Shown here piece after piece: positions 26,262 through 51,318 of a stretch of 64,000 bases of DNA (positions are counted from its first letter, which is position 1; every line of letters begins with the position of its first letter). A program made the translations under genes and the position numbers. The notes beneath the pieces are model-generated. The model saw only the letters and a program-made list of their open reading frames with translations. It ran no database searches and was not told where the DNA came from. Origin of the DNA: a virus; the IMG/VR virus record IMGVR_UViG_3300025138_000026, positions 15,644-79,643 of that record. One strand, given 5' to 3'.

Positions 26262-26641
26262 TGTCAATATACCTATATAAACACCCCACGAAAGACGAGT
26301 ATGAAGAGGTTATTCAGGGAATGAATGACCCCCATACTTTCTCAAAAGATGGAGAGGAATGGCGAAGAGTATTCACAGTTCCACATGCCTCGATATCAAG
26401 TAACGATGACCCTTTTAACTCTAACGCCTTCGTCGAGAAGACAGGTAAAATGAAGGGTACTGTGGGAGATATGATGAGCTATTCTGAAGAGTTGAGCCAG
26501 AAACGAGCAGATAAACATGGAGGACAAGACCCCGTTAAGACTAAACACTTCAAAGACTACGAAAGGGACATCGGCAAAAAGCACATTGCAGATAAGCAAA
26601 CTAGTTTTGAGAATAAATCAATAAAGATTGATATGGATTAA
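26261..26641 (+). CDS. FmdB-like N-terminus (no Cys), hypothetical protein
   Basis: MSIYLYK...EEVIQGM..WRRVFTVP. Confidence 0.55.
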   Translation: MSIYLYKHPTKDEYEEVIQGMNDPHTFSKDGEEWRRVFTVPHASISSNDDPFNSNAFVEKTGKMKGTVGDMMSYSEELSQKRADKHGGQDPVKTKHFKDYERDIGKKHIADKQTSFENKSIKIDMD

Positions 26642-27474
26642 ATGGAGGTTAAACCGATTCCAGCCCAACTCCCTCCAATAAATACACATAAAGTAGATCC
26701 TGAAATCGCTAATGCTCCAGTTGCTTCCACTGAAGGAGAACCATCAGAAGAACCCATACTATTACCTAACCATTTAGGGAGGGCAAATCCCGTCTGATAT
26801 CTTACAATGCCCGTTACAGTGTGAGGACCGTTAAACATTTCTTCATTGACAATGGTGCTGCCGCTTAATACCGCATCGCTCAAAACATCTAATTGACCAC
26901 TAAATATGCCAGTTCCGTCTACACTTAAGCTCTGTTGGAAATAAGTGTCTCCACCTTGGAAGAAATGACCAGAACTAAATTTCGCATATAAGGCGTCTTG
27001 CTGACTTACGGTAATTGAGTTTGTAGTTAGGTTATCTTTTAAGACGACACTACCCGTTGCAGTTTCAGTAAACGTTATACCATGCCCAGCTAAGCAAACA
27101 TTTTCTTGACTTCCCGTTCTGAATTCTACAGAATCTGCGCGAAAAACAGCATTATTAATCCCGCTAATGCTACTGTCATTGCATGAAATTGCAAAATTAT
27201 TATATGCGTTTAGTCCATCTCCTATTTCAGTATCACTACCTAGAAACAAAAAGTTTCCACTATTTGTATTATAGATGTTATCGATTTTCTGAGCAAAACT
27301 TGCAATTGATTTACCGTTATTAGTCAAATCTCCTGTAAAAGAAAAATCACCTGTCAAGTTCCTAGAAACATTGATTTGAACTCCCGTATTTGTTTGAGTT
27401 ATATTTAGATCTCCAGAATCACTAAAGAAAGTGTGCAATTGGATCTGTTCAGGTTGAATTTTATTAAAAGCCAT
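26638..27474 (-). CDS. Putative virion fibre or decoration protein, [ST]G-rich
   Basis: Beta-rich S/T/G composition, 16 [ST]G; own GTGTAA motif at 27500-27505. Confidence 0.55.
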   Translation of the reverse strand: MAFNKIQPEQIQLHTFFSDSGDLNITQTNTGVQINVSRNLTGDFSFTGDLTNNGKSIASFAQKIDNIYNTNSGNFLFLGSDTEIGDGLNAYNNFAISCNDSSISGINNAVFRADSVEFRTGSQENVCLAGHGITFTETATGSVVLKDNLTTNSITVSQQDALYAKFSSGHFFQGGDTYFQQSLSVDGTGIFSGQLDVLSDAVLSGSTIVNEEMFNGPHTVTGIVRYQTGFALPKWLGNSMGSSDGSPSVEATGALAISGSTLCVFIGGSWAGIGLTSI

Positions 27475-27512
27475 GATACAATAGATTATCTTCTATAAAT
27501 TACACAAATTCA

Positions 27513-28106
27513 ATGAAATTTACTCTTTATAAGCCAAACTCTAAAAATGCAGGATCTGCATTCAGTTTTGATATCGCAAAAGACAAGAAGGGAAATGCAG
27601 TTATGTACGTCTCTATGATTCAACAACATAGCTGGAATGATCAAACTAAAAGCGGGTCTTTTAAAGAAAATGCTAAAAATCCAGAAAAGTCTGGAACCAT
27701 TAAGTTAACAGCTAATGAAGCTGGAGAAATTTTATCTTCACTAAAAACCAGAATCCCTTTTGTAGCATTCCATAGACGGGATAAAGACACTACGATCATT
27801 AAATTCACCCCTTGGGACAAAAAAAGAAAAATCATGAATAAAAATGGGGAAGAATGGCTTGAAACCCCTGCATTTGGGTTCACGGTAACGAGAAATTCTT
27901 CTCAGATATTCAAGCTTCCTCTAGAAGCTGGAGAAACAGAAGTTCTTGGAGAACTAATGAAAAAGTATATTTTAGACTCTTTTTTTGTCGCTGACGCTTA
28001 TCAGAATCAAAAACCCAAATACGAAAAGAAAGAATACGAAAAAAAACAATACGAAGAGCCAAAACAAGAGGTAACTGAAGACGAAGATGACGGAGTCCCA
28101 TTCTAA
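27513..28106 (+). CDS. Single-stranded DNA-binding protein (PC4/Whirly-like core suspected)
   Basis: Acidic tail EDEDDGVPF resembles the SSB tail DDDIPF; beta-beta-helix repeat pattern. Confidence 0.6.
   Translation: MKFTLYKPNSKNAGSAFSFDIAKDKKGNAVMYVSMIQQHSWNDQTKSGSFKENAKNPEKSGTIKLTANEAGEILSSLKTRIPFVAFHRRDKDTTIIKFTPWDKKRKIMNKNGEEWLETPAFGFTVTRNSSQIFKLPLEAGETEVLGELMKKYILDSFFVADAYQNQKPKYEKKEYEKKQYEEPKQEVTEDEDDGVPF
28020..28058 (+). repeat. 15-nt tandem repeat (about 2.6 copies) in the SSB linker
   Basis: TACGAAAAGAAAGAA-TACGAAAAAAAACAA-TACGAAGAG encodes YEKKE YEKKQ YEE. Confidence 0.6.
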
Positions 28107-29802
28107 AAAACTAAGGGTCTTAATACACTCTAATCATAGCAGACTTGTTACGGGGTTTGGGAAAAATGCTAAAAATATTTTGTTAGCATTACATAATGAC
28201 CCACACATTGAAGTGATTGAAGCTGGAAATGGCGCGAAATTTGGAGCCGACTTACTGACTCCTTGGGAGTCTTATGGGACTCACCCCAGTGATCCATCAT
28301 TCTTAAGATCAATCCGAGGGGACGGGCCGAAAGAAAGAATGGCTCAATATGGTTACTATACGATAGATGAAATTGTAGAAAAATCTAAACCAGATGTATA
28401 TCTTGGGATTGAAGATATTTGGGCCTTTGCCGAATATCACAAAAAACCTTGGTGGAATAAAATTAACAAAGTTCTTTGGACGACTTTAGATAGCCTCCCG
28501 ATATTGGATCAAGCAAAACAAATGGAGCCTCACTGTGATAAGATGTTAGTGTGGGCATCATTTGCAGAGGAAGAAATGAAGAAGCTTGGACACAAAAATG
28601 TAGAGACAATTCATGGTGCTGTCGATTACTCTCATTTCAAACCAATGGATTATAGATCTGCTGTAAGAAAGAGATTTGGTTTAGACTCAAGTTATGTAAT
28701 AGGATTTGTTTTCAAGAACCAATTGAGGAAATCAGTACCGAATCTTTTAGAAGGATTTAAGATTTTCAAAGAAGAAAACCCGAATGTTAATGCAAAATTA
28801 CTATTGCATACAGATTGGGGGGAAACATCTCATGGCTGGGACATACCAAGGTATCTTAAAGAAATGGATATTGATCAGGATGATGTATTGTCCACTTACC
28901 TTTGCCATGCTTGTGATTATTACCACATTGCACCTTATCAAGGAGAAGACAAGGACTGTCCACGTTGTAAAAAAGAAAAATCGTTTAAAACTAAAAATAG
29001 CGCAAAGGGGATTAATGAAAAACAGTTGAACGAACTCTATAATTGTATGGACGTTTATTGTCATCCATTTACAAGCGGAGGGCAAGAGTTACCGATTCAA
29101 GAGGCTAAAGCAGCGGGTCTAGTGACTTTAGTCACGGAATATTCCTGTGGAACAGATTCGTGCTATGAACATCAAGGAGGAATCCCTCTTAAATGGAATT
29201 CATATAGAGAACCCAGCACCCAGTTTATTAAAGCATCGACTTGTCCGAAGGATATAGCTGCAAAGTTAAAAATGGCGCGAGGGATGACAGAAGTTGATAC
29301 TATGGTTCTAGCGGAGAAGGGGATAGAATACGTAAAGAAGGAGTTTTCAGTACAATCTACAGTAGAAAAACTGAAGAAAGTCCTATTAAACCTAAAAAAA
29401 CCCGAAGTTAAAGAAGAAGAGGCTAAAGACTCCCCCAAGACTTTAGGGATTGAAGATGTATTAGGCGATGAAGGCATTTCTAATAGAATCGCCGTTGTTC
29501 TTCCTGAATCAGCTGGAGATATTCTCATCCTAAATTCTTTAATGAAAAATCTTAAAGATTTATATCCAGAAAAAAATATATACGTATTTACTAAACCCCA
29601 GTTTTATCAAATGATTGAGGATAATCCAAGCGTTCATAAAATCCTTCCATATCAAGATAGTCTTCAAAACCTATTAATGCTAGAAGGGAAGGGAGACCAT
29701 CAGGGGTATTTTGACATGGCTTTTTTACCTAATATCGGGACGCAAAAACATTTAAACTATCTTCATAACGGTAAAGATAAAACACAATTTGAGTTACGAT
29801 GA
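28087..29802 (+). CDS. GT4-like glycosyltransferase with Cys4 insertion, fused to an N-terminal GT9-like domain
   Basis: TGFG, IHGAVD, NQLRK, CHAC..CPRC, LYNCMDVY..GGQELPIQEA; C-terminal PESAGDILIL...EDNPSV. Confidence 0.8.
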   Translation: MTESHSKKLRVLIHSNHSRLVTGFGKNAKNILLALHNDPHIEVIEAGNGAKFGADLLTPWESYGTHPSDPSFLRSIRGDGPKERMAQYGYYTIDEIVEKSKPDVYLGIEDIWAFAEYHKKPWWNKINKVLWTTLDSLPILDQAKQMEPHCDKMLVWASFAEEEMKKLGHKNVETIHGAVDYSHFKPMDYRSAVRKRFGLDSSYVIGFVFKNQLRKSVPNLLEGFKIFKEENPNVNAKLLLHTDWGETSHGWDIPRYLKEMDIDQDDVLSTYLCHACDYYHIAPYQGEDKDCPRCKKEKSFKTKNSAKGINEKQLNELYNCMDVYCHPFTSGGQELPIQEAKAAGLVTLVTEYSCGTDSCYEHQGGIPLKWNSYREPSTQFIKASTCPKDIAAKLKMARGMTEVDTMVLAEKGIEYVKKEFSVQSTVEKLKKVLLNLKKPEVKEEEAKDSPKTLGIEDVLGDEGISNRIAVVLPESAGDILILNSLMKNLKDLYPEKNIYVFTKPQFYQMIEDNPSVHKILPYQDSLQNLLMLEGKGDHQGYFDMAFLPNIGTQKHLNYLHNGKDKTQFELR

Positions 29803-30929
29803 GCCATCTAGCAGAGGAATACGCCAAATCATGCGGAGTAAAGATTGGTAAACCAGTATTGAATCCTCATTATTTCCCAGTTTTATACGATAAGTATATT
29901 ACAATTCATAATGACAAGAAAGTTCAGGCGAAAGAATATGACATGTGGGTTGATGTTGTTGAACTTCTTAAAACGCATTTGGGAGATATTAAAATCATCC
30001 AAGTCGGAGCTAAAGGAGAAAAAACAATTGACGGCGTAGATGCTCATATGCCCACAGAAACTCTGAAGCAATCTGCATATATTATAAAAAACTCTCTGGG
30101 ACATGTCGGGATTGATAGCGTCCCTGTTCACATAGCTTCTGCATTAGATAAGCCCGTTGTAGGTATCTATGCTCACACATATGCAGACACATGTTCTCCG
30201 CTTTGGAATGATAAAACAAAAGCGATAACAATTGAATCAGATAGGGGTGGAAAAAAACCCTCATTTTCTTTAGAGGAAAATCCAAAAACAATTAATTTCA
30301 TAAAACCAGAGGAGATCGCTCAAGCTGTTCTTGATGTTTTAGAGATCGATGAAAAAGTTGTTCATGAAACTATTTTCATTGGGGGTAATTATAAGTCAGA
30401 TTTTTACGAGGTTGTACCGATAAAGCGCACAAATATTGTGTCTGATCATATCGATGTAAGGATGGACTACGCTCATAACGAAGAAGTCCTGTATCATATT
30501 CTACAAAGAAATAAAGTTGAAGTTACTACTTCAAAACCCATTAGCGAGAGCCTGATTAAATCCAAGAGAATAAAAAAGTTAATATATAAAGCGGATTTGT
30601 TTGATCTTGATTTCTGTAAACTTGTAAAAGATCAGGGTATACCCACTATCACAATATGCACCTCTTCAGATAACCTCACTGAAGAAAGATCAAAAAACTT
30701 TGATCAGCTAATTAATTATCTAGATACTGAGGCTATTATTGAGAATAATAAAAAAAGGATTGATATCGACGATTTTAATACAATTAAAATTAAAAGTAAT
30801 AAAAAAATTGTTTGTGGAGACGAGATTTATCCTAGCTATTTTGATTTAAATGAACGAAAAAATTTAGATCATTTTTATCTTGACTTAGAATTTTTTAGAG
30901 TTTACCGTGAGCCACATGAGCAAGAATAG
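29799..30929 (+). CDS. GT9 (heptosyltransferase)-like C-terminal domain protein
   Basis: HLAEEY, YITIH, IIQVG, GHVGIDSVPVHIASALDKPVVGIY, IKPEEI. Confidence 0.72.
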   Translation: MSHLAEEYAKSCGVKIGKPVLNPHYFPVLYDKYITIHNDKKVQAKEYDMWVDVVELLKTHLGDIKIIQVGAKGEKTIDGVDAHMPTETLKQSAYIIKNSLGHVGIDSVPVHIASALDKPVVGIYAHTYADTCSPLWNDKTKAITIESDRGGKKPSFSLEENPKTINFIKPEEIAQAVLDVLEIDEKVVHETIFIGGNYKSDFYEVVPIKRTNIVSDHIDVRMDYAHNEEVLYHILQRNKVEVTTSKPISESLIKSKRIKKLIYKADLFDLDFCKLVKDQGIPTITICTSSDNLTEERSKNFDQLINYLDTEAIIENNKKRIDIDDFNTIKIKSNKKIVCGDEIYPSYFDLNERKNLDHFYLDLEFFRVYREPHEQE

Positions 30930-31689
30930 TGTTTACGGTCCAGATATTTACAAAAGAAACGAGCACGGCCTTTTAGAGAATGCTTCGTATTGTTTTAATG
31001 AAGACGGATCTGTTGATTGGAGATCCATGATCAAAGACGATTTCCTTTATCCTAATAAAGGTTGGTTTGAAGCAAGAAAGAAGCCTGTCCCAAGCTCTAC
31101 TGATGGATTGAAAGATAATCAACTCCTAATCATGCTTGGAGGCATTAAAGAACTAGCCAAGCTAAGAGGTTTTGAATCAGTGTCATTTGAAACAGAGAAC
31201 ATTTCCGATGGATATGTCAAAGCAACTTGTAGAATTATTTGGGGAAAGAATTACGAAAGCTCTGGAATCAACACAATTTACGAAGATGTCGCCAATGCCT
31301 CATTAGATAATACGGATGATTTTTGCGCTAAATTCCTAGAGACTATTGCTTGTAATAGGGCTTTTGTTCGTTGTGTCCGTAATTTCTTAAATATCCATAT
31401 CGTAGGGGCAGACGAGATTGATAAGTCAAAAGGAGCGAATAATTCTAATAGTGTGGAATATGATGCCTCTAGTGACTCAGTAATGCTCCCATTAACCCCC
31501 TCAGGATCGCTCCAGAAGGCTTTGAACGAGAATCATGGAGTAAAGTCCTTTGAGGAGTTTAAAACGTTTCTAAGGTCATTGTGGAAGAAGGAGTCTTACC
31601 GAAATGAAGAGGCCGCGAATTGGATGTCTTATGAGGACATCCCAGCCAAAGAATGCAGGAAATTGATGGCAATCTGCAAAAAATCATAG
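30916..31689 (+). CDS. Putative ssDNA-annealing protein (Rad52/Sak-like); start probably ATG 30916
   Basis: LGGIKELA..RG, ATCRI, ANAS, ETIACNRAFVRCVR; upstream TTGACT-17-TACCGT. Confidence 0.55.
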   Translation: MSKNSVYGPDIYKRNEHGLLENASYCFNEDGSVDWRSMIKDDFLYPNKGWFEARKKPVPSSTDGLKDNQLLIMLGGIKELAKLRGFESVSFETENISDGYVKATCRIIWGKNYESSGINTIYEDVANASLDNTDDFCAKFLETIACNRAFVRCVRNFLNIHIVGADEIDKSKGANNSNSVEYDASSDSVMLPLTPSGSLQKALNENHGVKSFEEFKTFLRSLWKKESYRNEEAANWMSYEDIPAKECRKLMAICKKS

Positions 31690-34179
31690 ACCTAGAGTGT
31701 TCCTCTGTCTCGCATTAAAGGAGCTTGGAAGCATTGATTTCGGAGTCAGCGCCTCCATTCCTTCTGTAATCTGGAAACCTTGATCTGGTGGAATTAGCTT
31801 TATCGTAGACTCACTCACTGTAGTTGTAATACCATCTGGACCGATAGAGATAGAAACAGAATTCATTGTTGGAGAAAACTCTGGGATCTGAAGGCCATAG
31901 AAAGTCCTACTAGAAGATTCAGGCTTATCAAAGCGATTACGGTATTTACCTCTAATTTTTTGGAGAACCTTCATTTCTGCAGTTGAACCAGAAGCAGATG
32001 ATAGACTGAGCTTGTTTAACATATTATGAGGTGGGCTTTCAATTGAATTATATTTCAAATCATAACGATCAAAAAGTTCAGCGATCTTCTGATCGTCTTC
32101 TGAAGCTTCTGCCAATTCATCGTCTTCAGCTTCTTCTCCATCTTCGCTTGTTTTATTGACCCGTGTCTTACTTCGTTTATAGGTTAATCGTAAAGTCGTT
32201 TTTTTCTTTATGGCTCTATAATAATTGTCAATTGATTGATTCATCAAATGTTTCATTCCCTCAACAAGAGTTTTATCGATAAGGTTGTTGGGGAAAGTTG
32301 GTCCACCTACAAGTAATCCTTCTGTGTGATTAGGATCTTCATAAATTTCATAATATTCCTGCAAAGGAGAAAAATCTACCTTCGCATCTTTTTGAACTAT
32401 TTTCTGATTGTTCGTGGATTTAACTCTTTCTAACTTAGGTATAGACCTAATAGCTATGAAATGATGCTCATGAGTGCTTTTTGCTGGGACTCCTCCAATA
32501 CGATTTTCTGCTTGAGTCAAATTAGCTAGACCTTTGACTGTCACATCTTGGTCTATGCCCAAAGAGTCAAAAAAGTCTGTTATGGGGGATAATTCCGAAA
32601 TTTCGTTTATTTTATCAGAGGCTTTTAAAGGACCAACAACATTGACATTGTTACTATTTGAGAACTCCATTCTCTCTACCTTATATTCTGAATAGCCATT
32701 TGAAATGTAAATACCTCCAGCTATTTGATAAAATAATTTCAGAAAGCTATATAATTGACTTCCATGGGGTCTAGGCATTTTTTTAAGATCGGTTCCTTCA
32801 AAGTGTTGGAATCTCACATACTTAAATTTGTTTGTGATCCTATTCATATTAAGAAGAGATGTTTTCTTCGCTTCTTTTTTCGCTTCTGCATCGTTAATAG
32901 CGAATACTGCTCTGTATTTTTCATCAGCATCTCCCCCATGCTCTTCTAGGAAAGGAATTAGTGGTAGAGCAGTTCCTTCTGGATTTAAAACAGGTTCATA
33001 ATCATATAGTTTACTTAAATCAAACGGATGATCATTTAATTTTTCTTTACCAAAAACTTCATTTTTCAAAGCTTTATTTTTAGCTATTGCAGTTGCGAAA
33101 TAGGTAAATTTATCAAAAACATCAACACTTTCCTCCTGATCAAACAAACTGAAAAAAGCAGCCAAAACAGTTCTAGATGCTTTTTTATGTATCCCTAGAG
33201 TCTCAAATCGACATCTTTTAAAGAAAATCGGTCTAGGTCTATCGTCATCTTTAGGATTGTTTGAATCTTTTTCTGTAGATCCATTATAAACGTTAACTAT
33301 TTTATTAGAAACGATACTCTCAGTGAAAGATGCACTTACAATATCGGAATTGGTTGTATCTGTATAATTATCAATTGGTATTTGACTAGCTATTTCACTG
33401 TTAATTAAGTTAATACTTCCATTTCTAGGGTCTACATACCAATAATAACCCAAATAACTTGCTATACTACTAACAACACTACTTAGAGTGCCACTGGTCT
33501 CAAATAAAGTATTATTGCTTGAGGGTAATCCATTTATAGATATGCCAACACTATTTAAAGCTGATCTAAAATCAGAAAGGGTATAACCAAATTTCAAATC
33601 GTATTGAGATAAATCTGGAGCAGCCTTATAAGTGCCATTTACAAACTCAGTGTTTAAACTAAGATCTTCTTTTAATTTCTTATTGTGATAGACAAGGCTA
33701 ATCTTAACTCCTTGAAAGTTGGCTGCAGACTCTACATTATAAACTTTTCCCATGTAGATAACAGACCCTTCAACTCTTGGTCCCTGAGATCTAAAAGATG
33801 TTAGGGGAGTATTTGCAACCTCTGTAAAATATGGAACTGGACCTTCAAAATCACTACCTCCATTTGGACCAGAATTGATACCCCGAACTAAAACCACATA
33901 AGATTCTAAAAGTAAGGACGTTCTATCCACATACCTTCTGGTGATCGCTTTTTTTGTAGGGCCAGCCGAAGTAGTTTTCTGAGTGCAGATAAAATTACCA
34001 AGCATCTCAGTAATTTTAGGATTAGAAAAGTTATTGATCTCACCTAGCCCACCGACGACAATGCCCAAATCTTCCCCAGTCTCTACAGATTTGGGGTTCA
34101 AGAAAGAAGTTACAGACGCTGTGTGACCTCCTCCAGCGTTTGTAAAATTCAAATCTACTTTTGTTATGCCTTCTCTCAT
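31684..34179 (-). CDS. Tail tip / baseplate hub-like protein
   Basis: Last gene of the tail module; large; TLSSVVSSIASYLGYYWYVD resembles hub proteins. Confidence 0.5.
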   Translation of the reverse strand: MREGITKVDLNFTNAGGGHTASVTSFLNPKSVETGEDLGIVVGGLGEINNFSNPKITEMLGNFICTQKTTSAGPTKKAITRRYVDRTSLLLESYVVLVRGINSGPNGGSDFEGPVPYFTEVANTPLTSFRSQGPRVEGSVIYMGKVYNVESAANFQGVKISLVYHNKKLKEDLSLNTEFVNGTYKAAPDLSQYDLKFGYTLSDFRSALNSVGISINGLPSSNNTLFETSGTLSSVVSSIASYLGYYWYVDPRNGSINLINSEIASQIPIDNYTDTTNSDIVSASFTESIVSNKIVNVYNGSTEKDSNNPKDDDRPRPIFFKRCRFETLGIHKKASRTVLAAFFSLFDQEESVDVFDKFTYFATAIAKNKALKNEVFGKEKLNDHPFDLSKLYDYEPVLNPEGTALPLIPFLEEHGGDADEKYRAVFAINDAEAKKEAKKTSLLNMNRITNKFKYVRFQHFEGTDLKKMPRPHGSQLYSFLKLFYQIAGGIYISNGYSEYKVERMEFSNSNNVNVVGPLKASDKINEISELSPITDFFDSLGIDQDVTVKGLANLTQAENRIGGVPAKSTHEHHFIAIRSIPKLERVKSTNNQKIVQKDAKVDFSPLQEYYEIYEDPNHTEGLLVGGPTFPNNLIDKTLVEGMKHLMNQSIDNYYRAIKKKTTLRLTYKRSKTRVNKTSEDGEEAEDDELAEASEDDQKIAELFDRYDLKYNSIESPPHNMLNKLSLSSASGSTAEMKVLQKIRGKYRNRFDKPESSSRTFYGLQIPEFSPTMNSVSISIGPDGITTTVSESTIKLIPPDQGFQITEGMEALTPKSMLPSSFNARQRNTLGL

Positions 34180-35036
34180 AAAATAATATCTTCTACTAAT
34201 GTTTTTACAGTGAACTCATTCCCCTCGATAGATCCACTAATCAAAGCATTAACTCCTGACTTTATTATACTTACACCTGTATAAAGCTCTAGATAGTTAG
34301 ATTGAAGCTCTGAGACTCCATTAATATAATAATTTGTTCTTTTCTCTATAAATCCAGAACCAAAAACATCAGGATTTACCCCTGTTACAGAGTCTGACCT
34401 AAATCTCTTCTTGTAAGCAGAGTATTTAAATTTATTTTTATTATTTGTTGTGACTACACCTCCGACATTTTGGGCTTCTGATCCAGCTCCTCCAAAAAGA
34501 GGTATGAAATTAGACTCTGTCCCAACAGAAACTCCAACGCCAACACCAGAATAAACCTTTTGACCATTTAAAAAATAATCACAATCTGAGAAACTAACCG
34601 ACCCCACAGAATTTACGATGGAAGCTTTTAAAGTTTCCCCTAAATCACCTGTCGCAGCAATTATCCCAGAGCCAGAAACTAGATTATAAGAAATATCATC
34701 CGAAGCATTTGCTGGAGTGGTCTGATCAAAAAATATCCTACTCTTATCAATCGGATCACTCTCCTCATCTTTAATAAAGAAATCTCCAGTATTTATTTGG
34801 TAAGATATTTCATTAATCGCTAACCCAGTTATCGGAATCTCCTGAGTTAAAGTTTGCCCATTTAAAGATAATTGAAATCTCCGATCCTCAAGAGATACTC
34901 TTCGGTCATAATAAACGATGTCTTGAGACCCCGCTACATCTTTATTTAATAAAAGAAAATTATCTGTATGCAAATCCAAGGAAGAGCATCCAGAAATCGT
35001 AGCGTCACCAGTAAATATAACAGAGTCGTAAATCAT
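34176..35036 (-). CDS. Virion structural protein, [ST]G-rich
   Basis: Repeated (L/Y/F)xNG-Q/V beta motifs; 13 [ST]G. Confidence 0.55.
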   Translation of the reverse strand: MIYDSVIFTGDATISGCSSLDLHTDNFLLLNKDVAGSQDIVYYDRRVSLEDRRFQLSLNGQTLTQEIPITGLAINEISYQINTGDFFIKDEESDPIDKSRIFFDQTTPANASDDISYNLVSGSGIIAATGDLGETLKASIVNSVGSVSFSDCDYFLNGQKVYSGVGVGVSVGTESNFIPLFGGAGSEAQNVGGVVTTNNKNKFKYSAYKKRFRSDSVTGVNPDVFGSGFIEKRTNYYINGVSELQSNYLELYTGVSIIKSGVNALISGSIEGNEFTVKTLVEDIIL

Positions 35037-36421
35037 ATCCTATCTCCTAAATAATAAATGTAATCTTTCTTCAAGTATTCTCCACTTACGTCCATTCTAA
35101 TTCCTGAATCATTAGACTTGGGGGTATCTATTACAGTCTCATACATAGGCTCTTGAATAACTCCACTTATTTTATCCAAAAACCCTGTTTGTATTCTAGA
35201 CCCAAATAACTGAACAGAAACAGTAGCGGCTCCAGATATACCCCTTTGTTCTATATACTCTGCTACTGCTCCCTCGACATCTTGTAATCCCAAGGTATCA
35301 AATGCAGAAGTGTCTCCAGTCGGCAAGTATTGATAACCAGAATCTGGATGTAGAAACCCGACCTCTTCTTTTACAAACCCAGTTACTTGGTTTACATCAA
35401 AAGATCTATAAATAAAATATCTATCACCCTCTCCCGTGTTAGTATTTGAATCAAAAGAGAAGTTTCCTGTAAGCATCCCTCTTCCCGTAGACAGGTTAAG
35501 ACTTCCAGTATTCTCATAGTCGTACCCAGTTATACCCGTTTCATAAACTGTGGTTTGATGATATCCTGTAATTCTAGTCTCCGTTGTAGCTGATTCAGAA
35601 GAGGTGAAGTAATTTCCTATCATTCCACTACCCAGACCAAATATAGTATTAGGAGAAATATAACCCGACAGTAAAGCGAAGGAATTTAGGCTTACATTAG
35701 AAGTCTTAAATTCTCCGTTTGTCCCTCTAAAATATTGATTAGAACCCCCGATGTAAAAATCTTCATTATTAGCGATAAAAGATGTGTCAACATTGAAATC
35801 ATCCTTATCAATTTGTTGATTGAAGAAATCATATTTGCACATGGTGACTTGATTAAATCCAAGGGAAAAACTAATTATGTTTCTTTTAGATAATTCTAAA
35901 TCACTAGAAGTATATATGAAATCCCCGTCTTTGCCAAACCCTTGGTAAAAAAGCTTCCCCCTATCTGTTATGCCGAAATTAAATCCTTTTGCTCCTGTTA
36001 TAACTTGATCATTGATAGTTGTTGAACTCTTCTCAAGAGAACCAAATAATACGCAATCATTCACTTCTCCATTAAATTCAAAGTCCATGATAACAGAGCA
36101 GTTAGAATAAGGCAGTGTCTCAGTACCTGTAATTTGCAAGTTTGATTCAGACAAGTCGGCTTTATCATTAATTAAAAATGTTCCTGTAGTTAGCTGTTTA
36201 GCCCCTGCATTTGTGGTAGAACCTAACCCAACTACAATTCCGCTATATATTCCTGTATCATTTGCTGGCTCGCAATTTTCTATAACAGAATATTTGGTTC
36301 CTGCTCTATTATCAATTCCAATATGCCTACCACTAAGCCCAGAAAAATCATAAAAGACAAGTAAGTCATTATTATTTCCTAATGATTCTGTTAAAGAGTA
36401 ATTTAAACCTTTTTCGCTCAT
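35033..36421 (-). CDS. Tail protein with LamG/concanavalin-like domain, [ST]G-rich
   Basis: LLVFYDF, GFNFGI, FYIGG; 24 [ST]G. Confidence 0.55.
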   Translation of the reverse strand: MSEKGLNYSLTESLGNNNDLLVFYDFSGLSGRHIGIDNRAGTKYSVIENCEPANDTGIYSGIVVGLGSTTNAGAKQLTTGTFLINDKADLSESNLQITGTETLPYSNCSVIMDFEFNGEVNDCVLFGSLEKSSTTINDQVITGAKGFNFGITDRGKLFYQGFGKDGDFIYTSSDLELSKRNIISFSLGFNQVTMCKYDFFNQQIDKDDFNVDTSFIANNEDFYIGGSNQYFRGTNGEFKTSNVSLNSFALLSGYISPNTIFGLGSGMIGNYFTSSESATTETRITGYHQTTVYETGITGYDYENTGSLNLSTGRGMLTGNFSFDSNTNTGEGDRYFIYRSFDVNQVTGFVKEEVGFLHPDSGYQYLPTGDTSAFDTLGLQDVEGAVAEYIEQRGISGAATVSVQLFGSRIQTGFLDKISGVIQEPMYETVIDTPKSNDSGIRMDVSGEYLKKDYIYYLGDRI

Positions 36422-36422: not shown

Positions 36423-38027
36423 TTAATAGTATCTACTTACATTATAAGAAATAGAATTGTCATTTAAACTACTTGACTCAGAAAATATATATACTCCTGT
36501 CATATATCCACTCACAACATCCTTTAGTTCTTGCAACTGTCCTGTGGAGGCTTCACAAACAGCAGACGCAGAAAACTCTCCTGCACTACGGTTATTTATT
36601 TTTTGTTTTGCAAACCCCCCTAAACTTGGAACTATTCCACTTCGCTCCAATGGTTGTTTATCAGTTAAAGTAACTTTTAAACCCGTCAGGGTTCCATTAG
36701 AAAGATCTGGCCTATTATCAAATTCTAATGAGTAATTAATTATACTATCAGATGGATTTTTAGAAATGGACCTACTAAGCGGCTCAGGGTTAATATAGTC
36801 TCCACTTATATAGTATCCAGTTGCATACCCTGTAAAGTCTTGCAAAGCCTCAATAGCTAAATTTAAAAACCCAGACCCAGTAGCTATCCCACTATATTGC
36901 TCATCTATTTCAATAAACCTTTGCCCAGTAGCTGGGTCTCCAGTAGGGATAACTTCAAAAGGAGAATTATATTTAAATTCTCCCTGAATTGAAACTTTAA
37001 CTTTTGAATCATCTTTGCTAGCATTCACAGAAGAATTTCTCTTATGTGAAACATTTCCGACTTGGTCTGTATTTTCAGGGTCAGAGAATACATAGGAAAA
37101 GTTAATAACATTAGTTCCTGTATCTATATCATAAGATACTGTTTTCGGACCTCTATCCATAAAGGTATAGATTCCGCTTTCATAATCAGATAGGGAAGAT
37201 GCGATGGCGTTAACTGCAATTTCTTGAGCTTGAGATGCTGTAAATAGTCCTGTAGTCACAAGACCCTCCGAGTTTCTAATGGAGTCAAAGTCCCCTTGAA
37301 TACTAGCGTTAACGTTCACGCTTAAACCAGCTTCTTTCTCGTAAGATATAGAACAGTTTGATGAAAAAACTCCAGATAAGCCAGTCTTCATATACTCGCT
37401 TGAGTTATAACGATAAGTTTCTTGCAGCCCGTAGATATTCTGGCTCTTGTCTATATTCTCTGTCCTAGACATCAAATAGCCTGTCGCTCCAGTCAAAAAT
37501 AGACTTAAATCACGATAACCTGTTGTTCTACCAGTGACGAAGTGTCTAGCATTTACCAATGGAGAGGTCGCATCAACTTTTAACCCTTGTGCCGAAACAT
37601 TGTGGCTAGCCTCTACCACACGACCATCTTGTTCATTAAAAGACCAAGTATCGGTAGGATTATTTATTCCAAAAAATTCAGAAAAGTCTTCCGATTTATA
37701 ACAGCTAAAAGATACAGAATAAGGCAAGACAGTACTCAAATCAGAATCGGAAAAAGAAATTGTCTCAGGCTTTGCTTGTGTAAAAGTCTTATTACCTGCG
37801 TCATGAGAAACAGTAAGAGTTTCAAATGTTGACATTAAACCACTAACCATTTGCATCTTCTGCAAGTGTAAACCACTTAAATTTTCTCCAGTTAAGTTGC
37901 CTACGAGTTCAACCGTATTTCTAAAGTGGTCAGCCTTGCCTCCAAGGTAAACAGGCTCAACCCCTTGTCCAACGAAAGGGAAAGGAGTTGGGAAAGTATA
38001 AGTTCCATATGTAATTTGTTCAGACAT
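36423..38027 (-). CDS. Distal tail / baseplate protein, [ST]G-rich
   Basis: Position after TMP; beta-rich; 25 [ST]G. Confidence 0.55.
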   Translation of the reverse strand: MSEQITYGTYTFPTPFPFVGQGVEPVYLGGKADHFRNTVELVGNLTGENLSGLHLQKMQMVSGLMSTFETLTVSHDAGNKTFTQAKPETISFSDSDLSTVLPYSVSFSCYKSEDFSEFFGINNPTDTWSFNEQDGRVVEASHNVSAQGLKVDATSPLVNARHFVTGRTTGYRDLSLFLTGATGYLMSRTENIDKSQNIYGLQETYRYNSSEYMKTGLSGVFSSNCSISYEKEAGLSVNVNASIQGDFDSIRNSEGLVTTGLFTASQAQEIAVNAIASSLSDYESGIYTFMDRGPKTVSYDIDTGTNVINFSYVFSDPENTDQVGNVSHKRNSSVNASKDDSKVKVSIQGEFKYNSPFEVIPTGDPATGQRFIEIDEQYSGIATGSGFLNLAIEALQDFTGYATGYYISGDYINPEPLSRSISKNPSDSIINYSLEFDNRPDLSNGTLTGLKVTLTDKQPLERSGIVPSLGGFAKQKINNRSAGEFSASAVCEASTGQLQELKDVVSGYMTGVYIFSESSSLNDNSISYNVSRYY

Positions 38028-39574
38028 TACTCTTCAATAAATAAATAAGTTAAGTTTCTAGTAGCTTTCCCGTCCCCTAGGTTTAGACTTGTTGTATCCG
38101 AGGTAATATGAATAACATCCTCATCAACCAATTCATTTAATTCCGCAGTTTTTGATTGCAAAATTTCTTTGGCTTTGAGTATTCCTGCACTTTGACTAAC
38201 TGTAGCTTCAGCTGACACGCTCGCTTGTCCGACAGTTTTTAGATTACTCTGTACAATCTGATCTGTTAAATCTTCTAAATTTAAAAATTTCTCCAATCTA
38301 TTAATTTGATTTGTTTTATTTAAAGTCTTTTTAAATTTAAGTAATCCATCGTCAGATGATTGATATGCATCATCACTAGTGAATACTACACTCTCAGTAA
38401 TCTTTCCCTCGGTTTTTAAGAAGTTTGTTGACCTACTCTTTTCAAAAAATTGAAATGTAGGATGAAATAATCTACGAATTTTTAATGAATATAGAGGCTG
38501 CTCGTTTCCCCAAGAAGCCCTAGTATTTTTAAATTTATCTATATTGTTCTTTCCATCCGATACGTATTCTATAGATAATGAATAACTTATAAATCTTCCA
38601 TCTTTACTCTCAGTTCCAGAATATGATATCACATTCTCTTGAGATTTTTTGGGATCTGTTGAAAAAGAAAGGGAGATAGTTGCTTTATTTCCGTCTGTAG
38701 AGACTGCTTTAGATATAGAGTGTGGGTTGCCAAATTCAACTTGTTCTTCAGCCTTCTTCGCGTCAATAATATTTGCTATAGCTGCATTGATAACATTTTC
38801 AGAATCTAATCTAAGAGAAGTAAGATCTATATTTATAGTTTTGTTTAAGTAACCTCTTTCATCAATACTCAAGTTTTGAGTCTCTTTTTTACTGACCTTA
38901 TTTGCATCATCAACTATTGAAGAATTCACATTCTCCTCTAAAGAAACGCTTAGCCCAATAAGATCATAAGTCTCACTTATCAAGCCCCGAAAATTATTGC
39001 TAATTTTAGCGTTTTCAGATATTCCATCTTCTTGATAACCAAAGTCAGGTCTATTCCCGAAATAATAATTAGTTAAAAAGGTCTTGGCATTATTGAGAAA
39101 TTGATCTCCCGCATCTTGAATATATGTTAAGGATATCTTTCTACTTGAGCTGTAATCAGAGCCATTTCTAGAGAAATCATAAGACTCAGAAAAACTAGAT
39201 ATTGCATGAGGGTTTGGAATGTATTTTGCAAACTCAGAAGAAGAATAATCATCTAATCTTCTATACTCTTCTATTGTAACAGATACAACTTCAGATCCTA
39301 CTAGAGTCCCAGCATCAAAACTATATGAAGTTATTTGACCATTTATATAATCATCAGCTCCGATTCTTGCTGTAATGTTTGGCCTGTTGTAGGCGCTTTC
39401 AATAGCGTCCCTGCCTTTAACTAAAGTAGTGTCTTCTTGTTCAATATTAATATCAGAAACGTCAATCTGATAAGATCCAACAACCTTATAGCCAAATAGC
39501 TCCTCAGTGTTCAGATAAGAATATTCTATCTGAACCGAAGAAGTTAAAACATTTGTTACTATTAAGCTAGCCAT
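38027..39574 (-). CDS. Distal tail protein
   Basis: Immediately downstream of TMP; beta-rich; only 1 [ST]G. Confidence 0.55.
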   Translation of the reverse strand: MASLIVTNVLTSSVQIEYSYLNTEELFGYKVVGSYQIDVSDINIEQEDTTLVKGRDAIESAYNRPNITARIGADDYINGQITSYSFDAGTLVGSEVVSVTIEEYRRLDDYSSSEFAKYIPNPHAISSFSESYDFSRNGSDYSSSRKISLTYIQDAGDQFLNNAKTFLTNYYFGNRPDFGYQEDGISENAKISNNFRGLISETYDLIGLSVSLEENVNSSIVDDANKVSKKETQNLSIDERGYLNKTINIDLTSLRLDSENVINAAIANIIDAKKAEEQVEFGNPHSISKAVSTDGNKATISLSFSTDPKKSQENVISYSGTESKDGRFISYSLSIEYVSDGKNNIDKFKNTRASWGNEQPLYSLKIRRLFHPTFQFFEKSRSTNFLKTEGKITESVVFTSDDAYQSSDDGLLKFKKTLNKTNQINRLEKFLNLEDLTDQIVQSNLKTVGQASVSAEATVSQSAGILKAKEILQSKTAELNELVDEDVIHITSDTTSLNLGDGKATRNLTYLFIEE

Positions 39575-46200: not shown

Positions 46201-46228
46201 ATTATATAAATATACAGAAAAAAATCAA
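46201..46228 (-). promoter_or_regulatory. sigma70-type promoter
   Basis: TTGATT-16 nt-TATAAT, 7 nt before ATG 46193. Confidence 0.6.
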
Positions 46229-46626
46229 CTTATACAACCTGTGGCCTCTAAAGAAAGTACCGAGTCCCCATGTTTAGTGAACATAACTAGATTTGACCTT
46301 CCATTCAAAACGCTATCTCCCGTCACATCTAATCCATTAGCTATTAAAATATCATCTTTATAATAAGAAAACGTGGAGTTTAGAAAATCATGATGTATTT
46401 CAAGGTCAAAGGGGACTCCGCTTCTATAACCCCCAAAGAAATTACCACTTTGGTCAAATATATAACCTTCCGCTCCAGAAAACGTCATTAAGTTAGCTGT
46501 TTTAAAACCTCCGTCTATACCTGTCTCCATAATGGAAAACTCAAAACCACTGATAGGAGAATCAATCGTTACATCTACATTGTAGATACAATTTTTATAA
46601 TTTGGTAGGTTTCCGCTAGTAATCAT
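46225..46626 (-). CDS. Small virion protein, [ST]G-rich
   Basis: 8 [ST]G in 133 aa; in the tail operon. Confidence 0.55.
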   Translation of the reverse strand: MITSGNLPNYKNCIYNVDVTIDSPISGFEFSIMETGIDGGFKTANLMTFSGAEGYIFDQSGNFFGGYRSGVPFDLEIHHDFLNSTFSYYKDDILIANGLDVTGDSVLNGRSNLVMFTKHGDSVLSLEATGCIS

Positions 46627-47468: not shown

Positions 47469-47476
47469 ATAGTAGT

Positions 47477-47513: not shown

Positions 47514-47531
47514 CTAGATATAATAGTTATA

Positions 47532-48812: not shown

Positions 48813-48859
48813 AAGATTTTAAGTTAAAAATGTAAAGGTTTACACCTTCTTACACAGAT

Positions 48860-49744: not shown

Positions 49745-50382
49745 CTATCTAACCTTAACAAATTCTTTTTAAAATTCTCTATTAACTGCCCAATATACGG
49801 AGTCCTAGTAAACTTTACACCAGAAGATCTATTTTTGACCTGTATCCCCGTACCAGAAGAAGATTGCCCAAAACCAGCAGAGCTGTATAGAAACTGCCCT
49901 AAGTTTGTTATACCTCCTTCTTCAACGCTTTTCGCCCAACTCTTTCCTGTCATCCAAGGGATCGGAGTCAAATTATATATGTCATCTGTAGAGGGTATAT
50001 AAAAAGTAACGTTGTATTGCCCTTTGTTATTCCTTTTCCGTACCGTAAACCTAATCTTTTGTCTAAAAATCTCAGATATAATTTCCGTTGGATTATCTCC
50101 TCCTGAGAACCCTATAAAAGAAAAAAGGTTACCGTATCCTCCCAAGCTTCCACTAGTATTAGACGCAGTCGGACCAGCATCTAATTCAACTGTGATTGGG
50201 TGTACTTTAAATTCTTTTTGTAGGTCTTTCTGCCTATCCTCTATTTTTGGAGCGATAACCTGCCGAATAGCCATCGCCATAGATTTACTATTCGGGCTAT
50301 CTGCAGTAAGCTCTCTTAGTAGTTCTTTGGCGTTTATAGTCACCACGGGCTTTGAAACCCTCATGAAATTCTTTTTTGCCAT
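49741..50382 (-). CDS. Neck / tail completion protein
   Basis: Basic protein in the head-tail joining block. Confidence 0.45.
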   Translation of the reverse strand: MAKKNFMRVSKPVVTINAKELLRELTADSPNSKSMAMAIRQVIAPKIEDRQKDLQKEFKVHPITVELDAGPTASNTSGSLGGYGNLFSFIGFSGGDNPTEIISEIFRQKIRFTVRKRNNKGQYNVTFYIPSTDDIYNLTPIPWMTGKSWAKSVEEGGITNLGQFLYSSAGFGQSSSGTGIQVKNRSSGVKFTRTPYIGQLIENFKKNLLRLDR

Positions 50383-50828
50383 TAGTTTTCACGTTTCAAA
50401 AAGATCGAGTAAAATTGAGTATCAAATGGTCCGATGATTTTTGCATCTCCATCAATTACAAAGAGTTGATCATCAACTTCTATCTTTGAACAAATCTTAA
50501 GTTTCTCGTATGCGTCAGCTTTTATTTTGACTCTAATTTGGCCTTCTGATCCTACAAGATTCATTTGTCCGTTCCCATCTAGTATATCTTCTTTTTGTTC
50601 GTTTTTATAATAAATGCGAGCAGGGAACGTGTACTTGGTTAGAGTTATCTCAGAAGAGATTTTGGCTGCGTTTTTATTTCTGCCATACAAAGGGTTGAAA
50701 TTAAGCTCAGCTGGGACCACAGAAGCCTCCTTGACGTAGATAAAGATATTTCTAGCAAATGTATCATGGACGTTACTTAAAGCTGAATTAATAGCGGATT
50801 TTTCAGCGTCTGTGAGTAAGGAGGGCAT
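50382..50828 (-). CDS. Head closure (stopper)-like protein
   Basis: Position; beta-rich ARIY, KIEVDDQLF. Confidence 0.5.
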   Translation of the reverse strand: MPSLLTDAEKSAINSALSNVHDTFARNIFIYVKEASVVPAELNFNPLYGRNKNAAKISSEITLTKYTFPARIYYKNEQKEDILDGNGQMNLVGSEGQIRVKIKADAYEKLKICSKIEVDDQLFVIDGDAKIIGPFDTQFYSIFLKREN

Positions 50829-50829
50829 A

Positions 50830-51318
50830 TTAAACTAATTGACCAGACAAGTTAAAAGTTCCATCTGTCCCTGCGACTTGAACGGGGGAAGATTTTTGAT
50901 AGTTATACTGGAAAAGGAGTCCATCAAGAGCTTCTTGAGCTTGTTCTCCTAAATCCTTATATGTTTTGGCTACAGAGTTTTTATTCTGTCTCTGGATTGT
51001 CGTATCACCTTCTTTAATGGTCACCCAATCTACAGAATCAGAATAAGTAAATGATCTTAGAGATTCTCTTGCTGATTTTTGGTAATACCAGATCTCATAC
51101 AATTTAGAAAAAATATTCTTTTCTACTTCAGCTAGACCTGTATTATCCATTAAGATCGCTCCAGTAGAGTCTACTGAAAATTCTTCATGTATAAGGCCAT
51201 TAAACTCTCCAATATTAGTTTCCAGCCACCCAGAAACAAATCCAACATTATATGACCCCGTATCATTAGGGAAATCATATGTGACAATATCAGTAGCTAA
51301 AACTCCAAGATCATTCAT
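50830..51318 (-). CDS. Head-tail adaptor-like protein
   Basis: Position; helical with TIKEGDTTI hairpin. Confidence 0.5.
   Translation of the reverse strand: MNDLGVLATDIVTYDFPNDTGSYNVGFVSGWLETNIGEFNGLIHEEFSVDSTGAILMDNTGLAEVEKNIFSKLYEIWYYQKSARESLRSFTYSDSVDWVTIKEGDTTIQRQNKNSVAKTYKDLGEQAQEALDGLLFQYNYQKSSPVQVAGTDGTFNLSGQLV

What the first reader, a model, noticed from the sequence alone, without database searches (positions are those of the whole stretch)
26638..51318. [S/T]-G dipeptide signature on a subset of virion proteins: candidate sequon for phage-encoded virion O-glycosylation
Seen (hand counts, +/-2): 36423..38027 has 25 [ST]G among about 46 Gly but only 4 of the reverse G[ST]. 35033..36421 has 24 (reverse about 10). 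26638..27474 has 16 in 278 aa, 34176..35036 has 13 in 286, 46225..46626 has 8 in 133, minor tube 9, major tube 10, adaptor 5 in 162. The adjacent, similarly S/T-rich tail protein 38027..39574 has 1 among about 27 Gly, and DnaE (853 aa) and NrdA (547 aa) have about 6 each. The bias is therefore directional and protein-specific, not just compositional. The same genome encodes about 8 glycosyltransferase ORFs plus HldD-, Gmd- and ColD-like enzymes. Established: Ser-Gly is the acceptor for proteoglycan xylosylation; Aah/TibC heptosylate Ser in SGG-type repeats of autotransporters; some mycobacteriophages glycosylate capsid and tail tube with their own GTs. Inference: the phage coats exposed tail, neck and tip proteins with glycans at dispersed [ST]G sites, as a shield or for receptor interaction.
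Basis: partly seen in the sequence, partly recalled or inferred. Interest (0 to 1): 0.88.

Follow-up and report, generated by a model that had tools for sequence, protein, structure and literature searches.

The report
Ser/Thr-Gly tag on phage tail-tip proteins
Five unrelated tail-end proteins of this uncultured marine phage carry the residue pair Ser/Thr-Gly two to three times too often. The excess is kept by selection across its relatives, so it is probably a tag for a modification, most plausibly sugar attachment by the phage's own transferases, but no chemistry shows this.

Summary
The counts are exact and not chance. Five proteins (26638-27474, 34176-35036, 35033-36421, 36423-38027, 46225-46626, all minus strand) have z 3.7-5.6 against shuffles. 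TG (48 vs 14.8) and SG (38 vs 20.3) are the top two of 400 dipeptides; the other 55 proteins sit at expectation. The tube and adaptor proteins are not significant.

- The signal is at amino-acid level: eight different Ser/Thr codons occur at the sites.
- It is hydroxyl-specific: N-G, D-G and G-G are under-represented.
- The five families are not homologous to each other.
- The excess persists in orthologues down to about 25% identity, with about half the sites shared and the rest new.
- In the 534-aa hub family the same fold carries 1 to 29 sites, so the fold does not need them.
- Ser/Thr before a conserved Gly keeps its hydroxyl in 93% of sequences, against 70% for other Ser/Thr.

Every enriched relative keeps a GT4 (invariant Cys4 insert) and a split GT9-like gene beside the tail genes. 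A sister clade lacking both shows no enrichment. But only 8 of 51 other GT-bearing loci show enrichment, and ordinary phage tail proteins have a mild excess.

Glycosylation is plausible, not shown. Earlier notes of this scan report the same kind of excess in other phage genomes.

The parts
36423..38027 (-). 534-aa tail-tip hub protein, third gene after the tape measure, with a Dit/tube-like N-terminal domain. It has 25 [ST]G among 46 Gly.
   Evidence: z 5.6. AF2 pLDDT 75; residues 1-120 match Dit/hub/tube chains at VIA Z 9.5-11.2 (6v8i, 8fqc, 2x8k); homologues carry 1 to 29 sites; hydroxyl retention 93% vs 70%.
35033..36421 (-). 462-aa baseplate protein with 24 [ST]G, densest in residues 285-446.
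   Evidence: Orthologues have median z 4.5 (n=36) and still z 5-6 at 34-38% identity (L005, G005C1). The AF2 model is poor (pLDDT 52).
34176..35036 (-). 286-aa baseplate or fibre-like protein with 13 [ST]G. It starts with a TGDxxxSG fibre-type motif.
   Evidence: Orthologues have median z 3.2 (n=37) and z 5.4-6.0 at 23-27% identity.
26638..27474 (-). 278-aa fibre-like protein encoded antisense inside the glycosyltransferase island, with 16 [ST]G.
   Evidence: Orthologues have median z 3.9 (n=40) and pooled observed/expected 2.22.
46225..46626 (-). 133-aa protein between the minor tube gene and the tail chaperone genes. It has 8 [ST]G and no G[ST].
   Evidence: z 3.7. Orthologues reach z 2.8-4.0.
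28087..29802 (+). 571-aa GT4-type transferase with an invariant CxxC-x14-CxxC insert and an EX7E motif. Its C-terminal part resembles the N-domain of GT9.
   Evidence: It is present in all group A loci and in groups B, L096 and L099/L153, and absent from group C. The family has 691 clusters at E<=1e-30.
29799..30929 (+). 376-aa protein whose residues 82-146 match the nucleotide-sugar-binding C-domain of GT9 heptosyltransferases. This is the second half of a split GT9, followed by an unknown tail.
   Evidence: PF01075 36.9 bits against a cut-off of 22; 1psw E 2.4e-5.
24856..25941 (+). 361-aa GT1/GT4-like transferase in the same island. It is also missing from group C.
   Evidence: 23.3 bits, just under the cut-off..
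38027..39574 (-). 515-aa protein directly after the tape measure. It is Ser/Thr-rich yet depleted in [ST]G, so it serves as an internal contrast.
   Evidence: 1 vs 5.3; pooled observed/expected 0.54 over 33 orthologues.
31684..34179 (-). 831-aa distal tail protein that is not enriched (contrast).
   Evidence: 4 vs 9.2; pooled observed/expected 0.91.
14894..17086 (-). Gmd (GDP-mannose 4,6-dehydratase) and a DegT/ColD-type aminotransferase, a possible sugar-donor supply.
972..1853 (-). NAD-dependent epimerase, HldD-like.

Best explanation
[ST]G, with Thr preferred over Ser, is a short linear motif kept and multiplied by selection on a defined subset of distal-tail proteins: a hub, two baseplate proteins, a fibre-like protein and a small tail protein. 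The most likely use is as the acceptor site for cytoplasmic O-glycosylation of these proteins before or during tail assembly. The candidate enzymes are the phage's own GT4 (Cys4 insert) and split GT9-like transferases, encoded next to the tail genes, with phage-made nucleotide sugars as donors. The hydroxyl residue would sit at the end of a strand or helix, and the Gly would open the loop that presents it.

Shown: the excess, its protein-level nature, its conservation with turnover, its independence of fold, and its co-occurrence with the GT pair in this clade.

Inferred: that the motif is modified at all, that the modification is a sugar, which enzyme does it, and what the coat is for (shielding or host binding).
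For: - Statistics. T-G is 3.2 times and S-G 1.85 times expectation. N-G (0.79), D-G (0.50) and G-G (0.49) are under-represented, so this is not a generic turn preference.
- Codons at the sites are diverse.
- The five families are not homologous to each other: BLAST E>0.1, hhalign probability <=1.3%.
- The excess is kept in 30-40 orthologues per family. Pooled observed/expected is 2.1-2.3, against 0.54-0.96 for the neighbouring tail proteins. At 25-35% identity about half the sites are shared and the rest lie in new columns.
- The hub family carries 1 to 29 sites on one fold. In the site-poor homologues the same columns read NG, DG, GG or have no Gly.
- Ser/Thr before a conserved Gly keeps its hydroxyl in 93% of sequences (median 99%), against 70% before other conserved residues (p=7e-7). 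Those Gly are 95.5% conserved against 82.8%.
- Sites lie in loops, at helix caps and at strand starts. 12 of 25 fall in low-pLDDT blocks that hold 24% of residues.
- 45 of 49 group A loci have a protein with z>=4, and all carry the GT4/GT9 pair.
- Group C (9 loci) keeps the flanking genes and a homologous hub but lacks the GTs, and has none. Controls have none in 185 ORFs.
- Unrelated tail-tip proteins are enriched in other GT-bearing lineages: J-like L082 z 5.8, L099 z 6.5, G005C1 848 aa z 7.9.
- Precedents: Aah/TibC heptosylate a residue at the start of a loop between strands, and one of two mapped TibA sites is N-S-G-G (PMC3835316; PMC4358343). Mycobacteriophages glycosylate virions with their own GTs (PMC12363180, citing Freeman 2023).
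Against: - There is no chemical evidence of any modification.
- Only 8 of 51 GT-bearing loci outside group A show z>=4 within 10 kb. Some homologous tail proteins there are depleted (L053 z -2.9).
- In L005 the hub has a single site although the GTs are present.
- The GT-less clade is a single phylogenetic contrast and shares only the hub family with the window, at 21-25% identity.
- Control tail proteins show a mild excess (T5 pb4 observed/expected 1.85, z about 3).
- Classical fibre motifs ([ST]GDxxx[ST]GxL) contain [ST]G for structural reasons.
- The GT pair could equally act on host envelope sugars. In group B it lies next to the replication genes.
- No TibC-like similarity was found, and BAHT enzymes modify Ser only, not Thr (PMC4358343).
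Confidence: 0.42

Rival explanations
1. Structural motif. Thr/Ser at the end of a strand or as a helix cap, followed by Gly, is simply the way these beta-rich tail-tip proteins build turns and caps. The excess would be an exaggerated, lineage-specific form of a bias common to phage tail proteins, and the neighbouring glycosyltransferases would be unrelated (for example host-surface modification).
For: - Control phage proteins have a median observed/expected of 1.24, and T5 pb4 reaches 1.85.
- Classical fibre motifs with two [ST]G open the 278-aa and 286-aa proteins.
- The G005C1 848-aa fibre repeats a TGQFY..NPSG[FY]ITG unit.
- Many sites are helix N- or C-caps or strand starts.
- Most GT-bearing loci outside group A show no excess.
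Against: - Five non-homologous folds share the bias, while their Ser/Thr-rich neighbours are depleted.
- The hub fold tolerates 1 to 29 sites.
- The usual turn formers N, D and G before Gly are under-represented rather than enriched.
- The structural contexts are heterogeneous.
- None of 185 control ORFs reaches z 4. Among the 105 controls of 250 aa or more, none has 44% or more of its Gly preceded by Ser/Thr.
Confidence: 0.3
2. The motif is functional but not a glycosylation site. It could be the target of another modification (phosphorylation, acylation, cross-linking), a recognition site for an assembly chaperone, or a host-glycan-binding loop type rich in aromatic residues around [ST]G.
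For: - Strong purifying selection on the hydroxyl and the Gly, with site turnover, fits any enzyme- or partner-recognised linear motif.
- An Hsp20 gene (25956-26261) and conserved unknown genes lie in the same island.
- Flanks are mildly hydrophobic or aromatic.
- The enriched proteins in other lineages are receptor-binding types: Phage-tail_3/J, BppL_N and fn3.
Against: - No kinase, acyltransferase or other candidate enzyme was found among the window's ORFs scanned with Pfam.
- The genes whose presence tracks the excess between groups A and C are the glycosyltransferases. Both groups keep the 24279-, 26261-, 27513- and 30907-like genes.
Confidence: 0.2
3. Chance, composition or a DNA-level artefact such as a nucleotide motif, codon-pair bias or repeats.
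For: Repeat-rich fibres in group B give large z-scores in both directions (-6.1 to +5.8), which shows that shuffles can mislead on repetitive proteins.
Against: - The five window proteins are not repetitive.
- Eight different Ser/Thr codons and all four Gly codons are used at the sites, at roughly genome-typical frequencies.
- The pooled z-scores are 9.5 for TG and 4.1 for SG.
- The bias is conserved in more than 100 homologues.
Confidence: 0.02

Closest known systems
Bacterial autotransporter heptosyltransferases (Aah/TibC, BAHT) acting on AIDA-I/TibA
   Same: - They are cytoplasmic and add many sugars to dispersed hydroxyl residues of a beta-rich surface protein.
[quoted passage not shown]
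- One mapped TibA site is N-S-G-G (PMC4358343).
- The enzyme has a GT9-related GT-B fold with a Cys4 metal finger inserted in the C-lobe, which helps bind the substrate (PMC4358343).
- Here there is a GT9-like C-domain, an invariant Cys4 insert in the adjacent GT4 domain, and an HldD-like gene.
   Different: - No sequence similarity to TibC was detected.
- The GT9-like fold is split over two genes and fused to a GT4.
- The Cys4 insert is in the GT4 part and looks like a zinc ribbon.
- BAHT enzymes modify Ser but not Thr, whereas here Thr-Gly is the stronger signal.
- The substrates are phage tail proteins, not autotransporter beta-helices.
Virion O-glycosylation of mycobacteriophages Che8, Corndog and Myrna (Freeman et al. 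2023, as cited in PMC12363180)
   Same: Phage-encoded glycosyltransferases modify the phage's own structural proteins.
   Different: - The targets there are the capsid and tail tube. Here the capsid and tube are not enriched, and the candidates are tail-tip proteins.
- No dipeptide sequon is described there to my knowledge (from memory; the paper is not held).
- Host phylum, phage family and GT families all differ.
Ser-Gly acceptor of proteoglycan xylosyltransferase
   Same: A hydroxyl residue followed by Gly serves as a minimal O-glycosylation acceptor.
   Different: That system is eukaryotic, works in the Golgi lumen, is Ser-only and uses a different enzyme family. No such enzyme was seen here. 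The resemblance is formal only.
GtfA/GtfB (GT4) O-GlcNAcylation of serine-rich repeat adhesins
   Same: A cytoplasmic GT4 enzyme with an extra inserted domain glycosylates many Ser/Thr residues of a surface protein before export (from memory, not tested here).
   Different: Its acceptors are low-complexity Ser-rich repeats, not dispersed [ST]G in folded domains. No similarity was tested.

Membership tests
BAHT (Aah/TibC) protein heptosyltransferases | GT9-related GT-B catalytic domain that binds ADP-heptose | tested here: inconclusive
   Residues 82-146 of 29799-30929 match the GT9 C-domain: PF01075 36.9 bits against a cut-off of 22, and 1psw E 2.4e-5. The N-domain match, at the C-terminus of 28087-29802, is weak (3tov E 0.27). 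The donor sugar is not determinable.
BAHT (Aah/TibC) protein heptosyltransferases | Detectable sequence relationship to TibC/Aah | tested here: inconclusive
   No TibC chain appears among the PDB sequence hits at E<=1 with single sequences or profiles.
BAHT (Aah/TibC) protein heptosyltransferases | Four-Cys iron finger inserted in the catalytic C-lobe | tested here: inconclusive
   An invariant C273, C276, C291, C294 insert exists, but it lies in the GT4 domain and weakly resembles ribosomal zinc ribbons. The metal and its role are unknown.
BAHT (Aah/TibC) protein heptosyltransferases | Serine-specific modification of autotransporter passenger repeats | tested here: not met
   The candidate sites favour Thr (48 TG vs 38 SG; observed/expected 3.2 vs 1.85), and the candidate substrates are tail proteins. 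TibC modifies Ser but not Thr (PMC4358343).
Phage-encoded virion glycosylation (mycobacteriophage type) | Glycans demonstrated on virion proteins | not testable with these tools
   This needs mass spectrometry or glycan staining of virions. No isolate of this clade exists in the phage collection.
Phage-encoded virion glycosylation (mycobacteriophage type) | Phage-encoded glycosyltransferases co-conserved with the structural genes | tested here: met
   The GT4 and GT9-like genes lie between tail genes in all group A loci.
Phage-encoded virion glycosylation (mycobacteriophage type) | Capsid and tail tube are the targets | tested here: not met
   The candidate capsid protein 51834-52973 (z 0.3) and the tube proteins (z 0.4 and 1.7) show no significant excess.
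GT4 glycosyltransferases | GT-B fold with an EX7E motif in the C-terminal domain | tested here: inconclusive
   The invariant block H326-P-F-x-S-G-G-Q-E334...E339 fits EX7E. Pfam Glycos_transf_1 scores 20.6 bits, under the 26.4 cut-off. The profile against PDB 2jjm gives E 0.044.
Distal tail / hub proteins with a tail-tube fold (Dit-like) | N-terminal tube-like beta-sandwich that forms the ring under the tail tube | tested here: met
   Residues 1-120 of the 534-aa model align to Dit or hub chains of 80alpha, Milano, SPP1, p2 and TP901-1 at Z 9.1-11.2, rmsd 2.4-3.3 A over 106-111 residues. The gene is the third after the tape measure.

The most novel reading that the evidence does not exclude
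A sequon-directed, phage-encoded protein O-glycosylation system. Thr/Ser-Gly would be a minimal acceptor written selectively into tail-tip proteins and avoided in their neighbours. It would be read by a widespread GT4 (Cys4 finger) plus split GT9-like transferase pair (691 clusters at 50% identity at E<=1e-30). The phage would thereby coat its host-recognition apparatus with sugars, possibly heptose. This would be the first dipeptide O-glycosylation sequon in a virus of bacteria and a general feature of abundant marine phages.
Probability: 0.33. Interest if true: 0.85.

Novelty: new variant of a known kind. Interest (0 to 1): 0.66.

Why it matters
Virion glycosylation by phage-encoded enzymes is known so far from a few mycobacteriophages, where it changes antibody recognition. 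If the [ST]G pairs are acceptor sites, three things follow.
- Abundant uncultured marine phages, probably of Flavobacteriia, would decorate their receptor-binding apparatus with their own glycans. This would affect host range, resistance to proteases and grazers, and stickiness to marine polysaccharides.
- A two-residue sequon would make phage glycoproteins predictable from sequence alone.
- The GT4 (Cys4) and split-GT9 pair would be a new cytoplasmic protein glycosylation tool.

Even if the motif is not glycosylated, a hydroxyl-Gly pair that is gained, kept and avoided protein by protein in one tail complex points to an unrecognised recognition code in tail assembly.

Tried and rejected
- **DNA-level motif:** rejected, because codons at the sites are diverse.
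- **Paralogy of the five proteins:** rejected.
- **Generic turn preference:** not supported, because N-G, D-G and G-G are under-represented.
- **Avoidance of deamidation-prone N-G/D-G:** no depletion beyond that of the other non-hydroxyl residues.
- **Extended sequon:** only a mild hydrophobic bias at -1, -2, +2 and +3, and no [ST]-G-S preference.
- **PHROG and Pfam annotation of the enriched proteins:** nothing usable.
- **Isolate phages with homologues of the hub, the 260-aa protein or the locus DNA:** none. The GT4 finds only distant cyanophage and Pontimonas phage GTs.
- **AF2 model of the 462-aa protein:** too poor to use (pLDDT 52).
- **Foldseek of the hub:** only weak tube-like hits. 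VIA-align gave the Dit/tube match.
- **The four-gene 'cassette' as one unit:** dropped. The 27513- and 30907-like genes persist without the GTs in group C. The 260-aa protein has only a weak Rad52/Sak lead.
- **The 100-kb contig G004C6 as a counter-example (GT4 present, no enriched ORF):** not clean, because the genes next to the GTs run off the contig end.
- **The look-up of encoding contigs:** Contexts came from the search for related loci and the fetch from genomes instead.
- **Freeman et al. 2023:** not held.


Full report
**Setting.** The window is bases 15644-79643 of a single 79.6-kb viral contig. It has GC about 36% and nearly all genes on the minus strand. Pfam identifies:
- terminase (57142-59031) and tape measure (39592-44511);
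- RNR, DnaB- and DnaG-like genes, a PHP/DnaE set, RecA-like, PhoH and a sigma factor;
- Gmd, a DegT/ColD-like aminotransferase and an HldD-like epimerase.

After the tape measure come genes for proteins of 515, 534, 462, 286 and 831 aa. A plus-strand island (24279-31689) converges on them. The island holds a GT1-like gene, Hsp20, a GT4, a GT9-like gene and unknowns, with a 278-aa fibre-like gene antisense inside it. No isolate phage matches the locus. More than 100 homologues come from marine metagenomes. Related contigs are repeatedly binned with Flavobacteriales MAGs.

**The observation.** Five proteins exceed composition-preserving shuffles at z 3.7-5.6.
- The reverse pair G[ST] is at or below expectation.
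- Pooled, TG is 48 against 14.8 (z 9.5) and SG is 38 against 20.3 (z 4.1). These are the top two of 400 dipeptides; the next highest z is 3.4 (a single K-W).
- In the other 55 proteins SG and TG sit at expectation.
- Forty-eight per cent of Gly follow Ser/Thr, against 13% elsewhere.
- The sites use TCT, AGT, AGC, ACA, ACT, ACG and all four Gly codons at roughly genome-typical frequencies, so the signal is in the protein.
- Before Gly only Thr (3.2x) and Ser (1.85x) are enriched. Asn (0.79), Asp (0.50) and Gly (0.49), the usual turn formers, are under-represented.
- Flanks are only mildly hydrophobic.

**Controls.** Lambda, 49 kb of T5 and 20 random IMG/VR loci give 185 ORFs of 150 aa or more. 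Their mean z is 0.39 and none reaches 4. Among the 105 controls of 250 aa or more, median observed/expected is 1.24, and the highest fraction of Gly preceded by Ser/Thr is 0.39, against 0.44-0.54 for the five proteins. T5 pb4 is the nearest large control (observed/expected 1.85). A mild excess is therefore normal in phage structural proteins. The excess here is about twice that.

**Not one fold, not needed by the fold.** The five families show no similarity to each other (BLAST E>0.1, hhalign probability <=1.3%). The hub model (pLDDT 75) has a Dit/tail-tube-like N-terminal domain (Z 9.5-11.2 to 80alpha, Milano and SPP1 Dit). Its 25 sites lie at helix C-caps, helix N-caps, strand starts and long loops. 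Twelve of them fall in low-confidence blocks that hold 24% of residues. Among hub homologues the count runs from 22-29 (>=48% identity), through 11-20 (38-46%) and 7-8 (about 37-39%), down to 1 (35%). The same columns then read NG, DG, GG, EG or have no Gly.

**Selection.** In related loci the orthologues of the 278-, 286-, 462- and 534-aa proteins have median z of 3.9, 3.2, 4.5 and 4.6 (n=36-40). Their pooled observed/expected is 2.1-2.3. The 515-aa neighbour is at 0.54, the 831-aa protein at 0.91 and the tape measure at 0.96. At 25-35% identity about half the sites are shared and as many sit in new columns. In 96 hub sequences, Ser/Thr before a conserved Gly retains a hydroxyl in 93% (median 99%). 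Ser/Thr before any other conserved residue retains it in 70% (Mann-Whitney p=7e-7). Gly after Ser/Thr is 95.5% conserved, against 82.8% for other Gly.

**Link to the transferases.**
- All group A loci keep the GT4 and GT9-like genes beside the tail genes, and 45 of 49 have a protein with z>=4.
- The GT4 has an invariant CxxC-x14-CxxC insert and an EX7E block. Its C-terminus weakly resembles a GT9 N-domain. Residues 82-146 of the next gene's product match the GT9 C-domain, so this is a split GT9.
- The GT4 family is large: 691 clusters at E<=1e-30.
- A sister clade, group C (9 loci, about 6 distinct contigs), keeps homologues of 24279, 26261, 27513 and 30907 and a hub at 21-25% identity. It has no GT1-like, GT4 or GT9 gene, and none was found in the whole MAG that holds L100. 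None of its tail proteins is enriched.
- Other lineages that carry the GT pair have enriched, unrelated tail-tip proteins: J-like proteins in group B (L082 z 5.8, L046 z 4.0), L084 (z 5.7), L099/L153 (z 6.5 and 5.3), L096 (z 4.1) and an 848-aa BppL_N-containing fibre in G005C1 (z 7.9).
- Their sequences have the same look, with dense hydrophobic-[ST]G-aromatic clusters.

**Against.**
- Only 8 of 51 GT-bearing loci outside group A show z>=4 within 10 kb.
- Some homologous group B tail proteins are depleted, and repeat-rich fibres give extreme z in both directions.
- L154 and L155 carry the GTs next to 3300-aa proteins with no excess, even locally.
- In L005 the hub has one site although the GTs are present.
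- The group A versus group C contrast is one evolutionary event.
- In group B the GT pair lies next to replication genes, and its acceptor cannot be read from sequence.
- No TibC similarity was found, and TibC modifies Ser but not Thr (PMC4358343).

[quoted passage not shown] One mapped TibA site is N-S-G-G, and a Cys4 finger inserted in the catalytic domain helps bind the substrate (PMC4358343). These are functional parallels, not evidence of membership. Mycobacteriophage virion glycosylation (PMC12363180, citing Freeman 2023) is the only established case of phage-encoded virion glycosylation that I could cite. Its targets (capsid and tube) differ.

**Earlier notes.** Notes of this scan report the same kind of Ser/Thr-Gly or Ser-Gly-Ser excess on tail proteins of at least seven other uncultured phage genomes. 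I treat these as leads, not support.

**Verdict.** A real, selected, hydroxyl-specific dipeptide motif sits on a defined subset of tail-tip proteins. O-glycosylation by the adjacent GT4 and split-GT9 pair is the best single explanation (about 0.4). A structural bias (about 0.3) and another motif function (about 0.2) remain open.

Noticed in passing
window 30907-31689 (+): This 260-aa protein of unknown function is the most conserved gene of the region, at 47-77% identity across phage groups A, B and C. It persists where the glycosyltransferases are absent. The only lead is a weak Atlas resemblance to Rad52/Sak single-strand annealing proteins (score 0.89).
   Followed up: partly
window 28087-30929 (+): A GT9-like fold appears split over two overlapping genes. 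The N-domain is fused to the C-terminus of a GT4 that carries an invariant CxxC-x14-CxxC insert. The arrangement is conserved in more than 100 full-length clusters.
   Followed up: partly
window 38027-39574 (-): The Ser/Thr-rich 515-aa protein directly after the tape measure is consistently depleted in [ST]G (pooled observed/expected 0.54 in 33 orthologues). The motif looks avoided there.
   Followed up: partly
whole window, proteins other than the five: The dipeptide Asp-Phe is strongly over-represented across the rest of the proteome (106 vs 65.5 expected, z 5.7). Asn-Pro is also high (61 vs 36.6).
   Followed up: no
L143:8917-11463 (+) (G005:C1:68917-71463): This 848-aa fibre has a BppL_N hit and 47 [ST]G against 19.2 expected (z 7.9). 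It is built around a repeated TGQFY..NPSG[FY]ITG / SSYATI..TGISG unit and lies far from the main tail module of a 139-kb relative.
   Followed up: partly
L083:12905-19786 (-), L087:12932-15895 (-), L090:12247-16470 (-): These giant group B fibres, with GNVGIGT-type or NTEFDYLDGV-type repeats, are strongly depleted in [ST]G (z -4.7 to -6.1). Shuffle z-scores are unreliable on such repeats.
   Followed up: no
window 25956-26261 (+): An Hsp20/alpha-crystallin gene sits inside the glycosyltransferase island next to the tail genes. It is present in 22 of the group A loci.
   Followed up: no
L100, L108/L147, L148-L152: In group C phages a minus-strand gene of 372-443 aa occupies the place of the glycosyltransferase genes. 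It has only a sub-threshold tetraspanin-like Pfam hit, so it may be a membrane protein.
   Followed up: no
L004:450-1715 (+): In one close relative the 133-aa [ST]G-rich protein is part of a 421-aa ORF. This could be a fusion with a downstream domain or an assembly difference.
   Followed up: no
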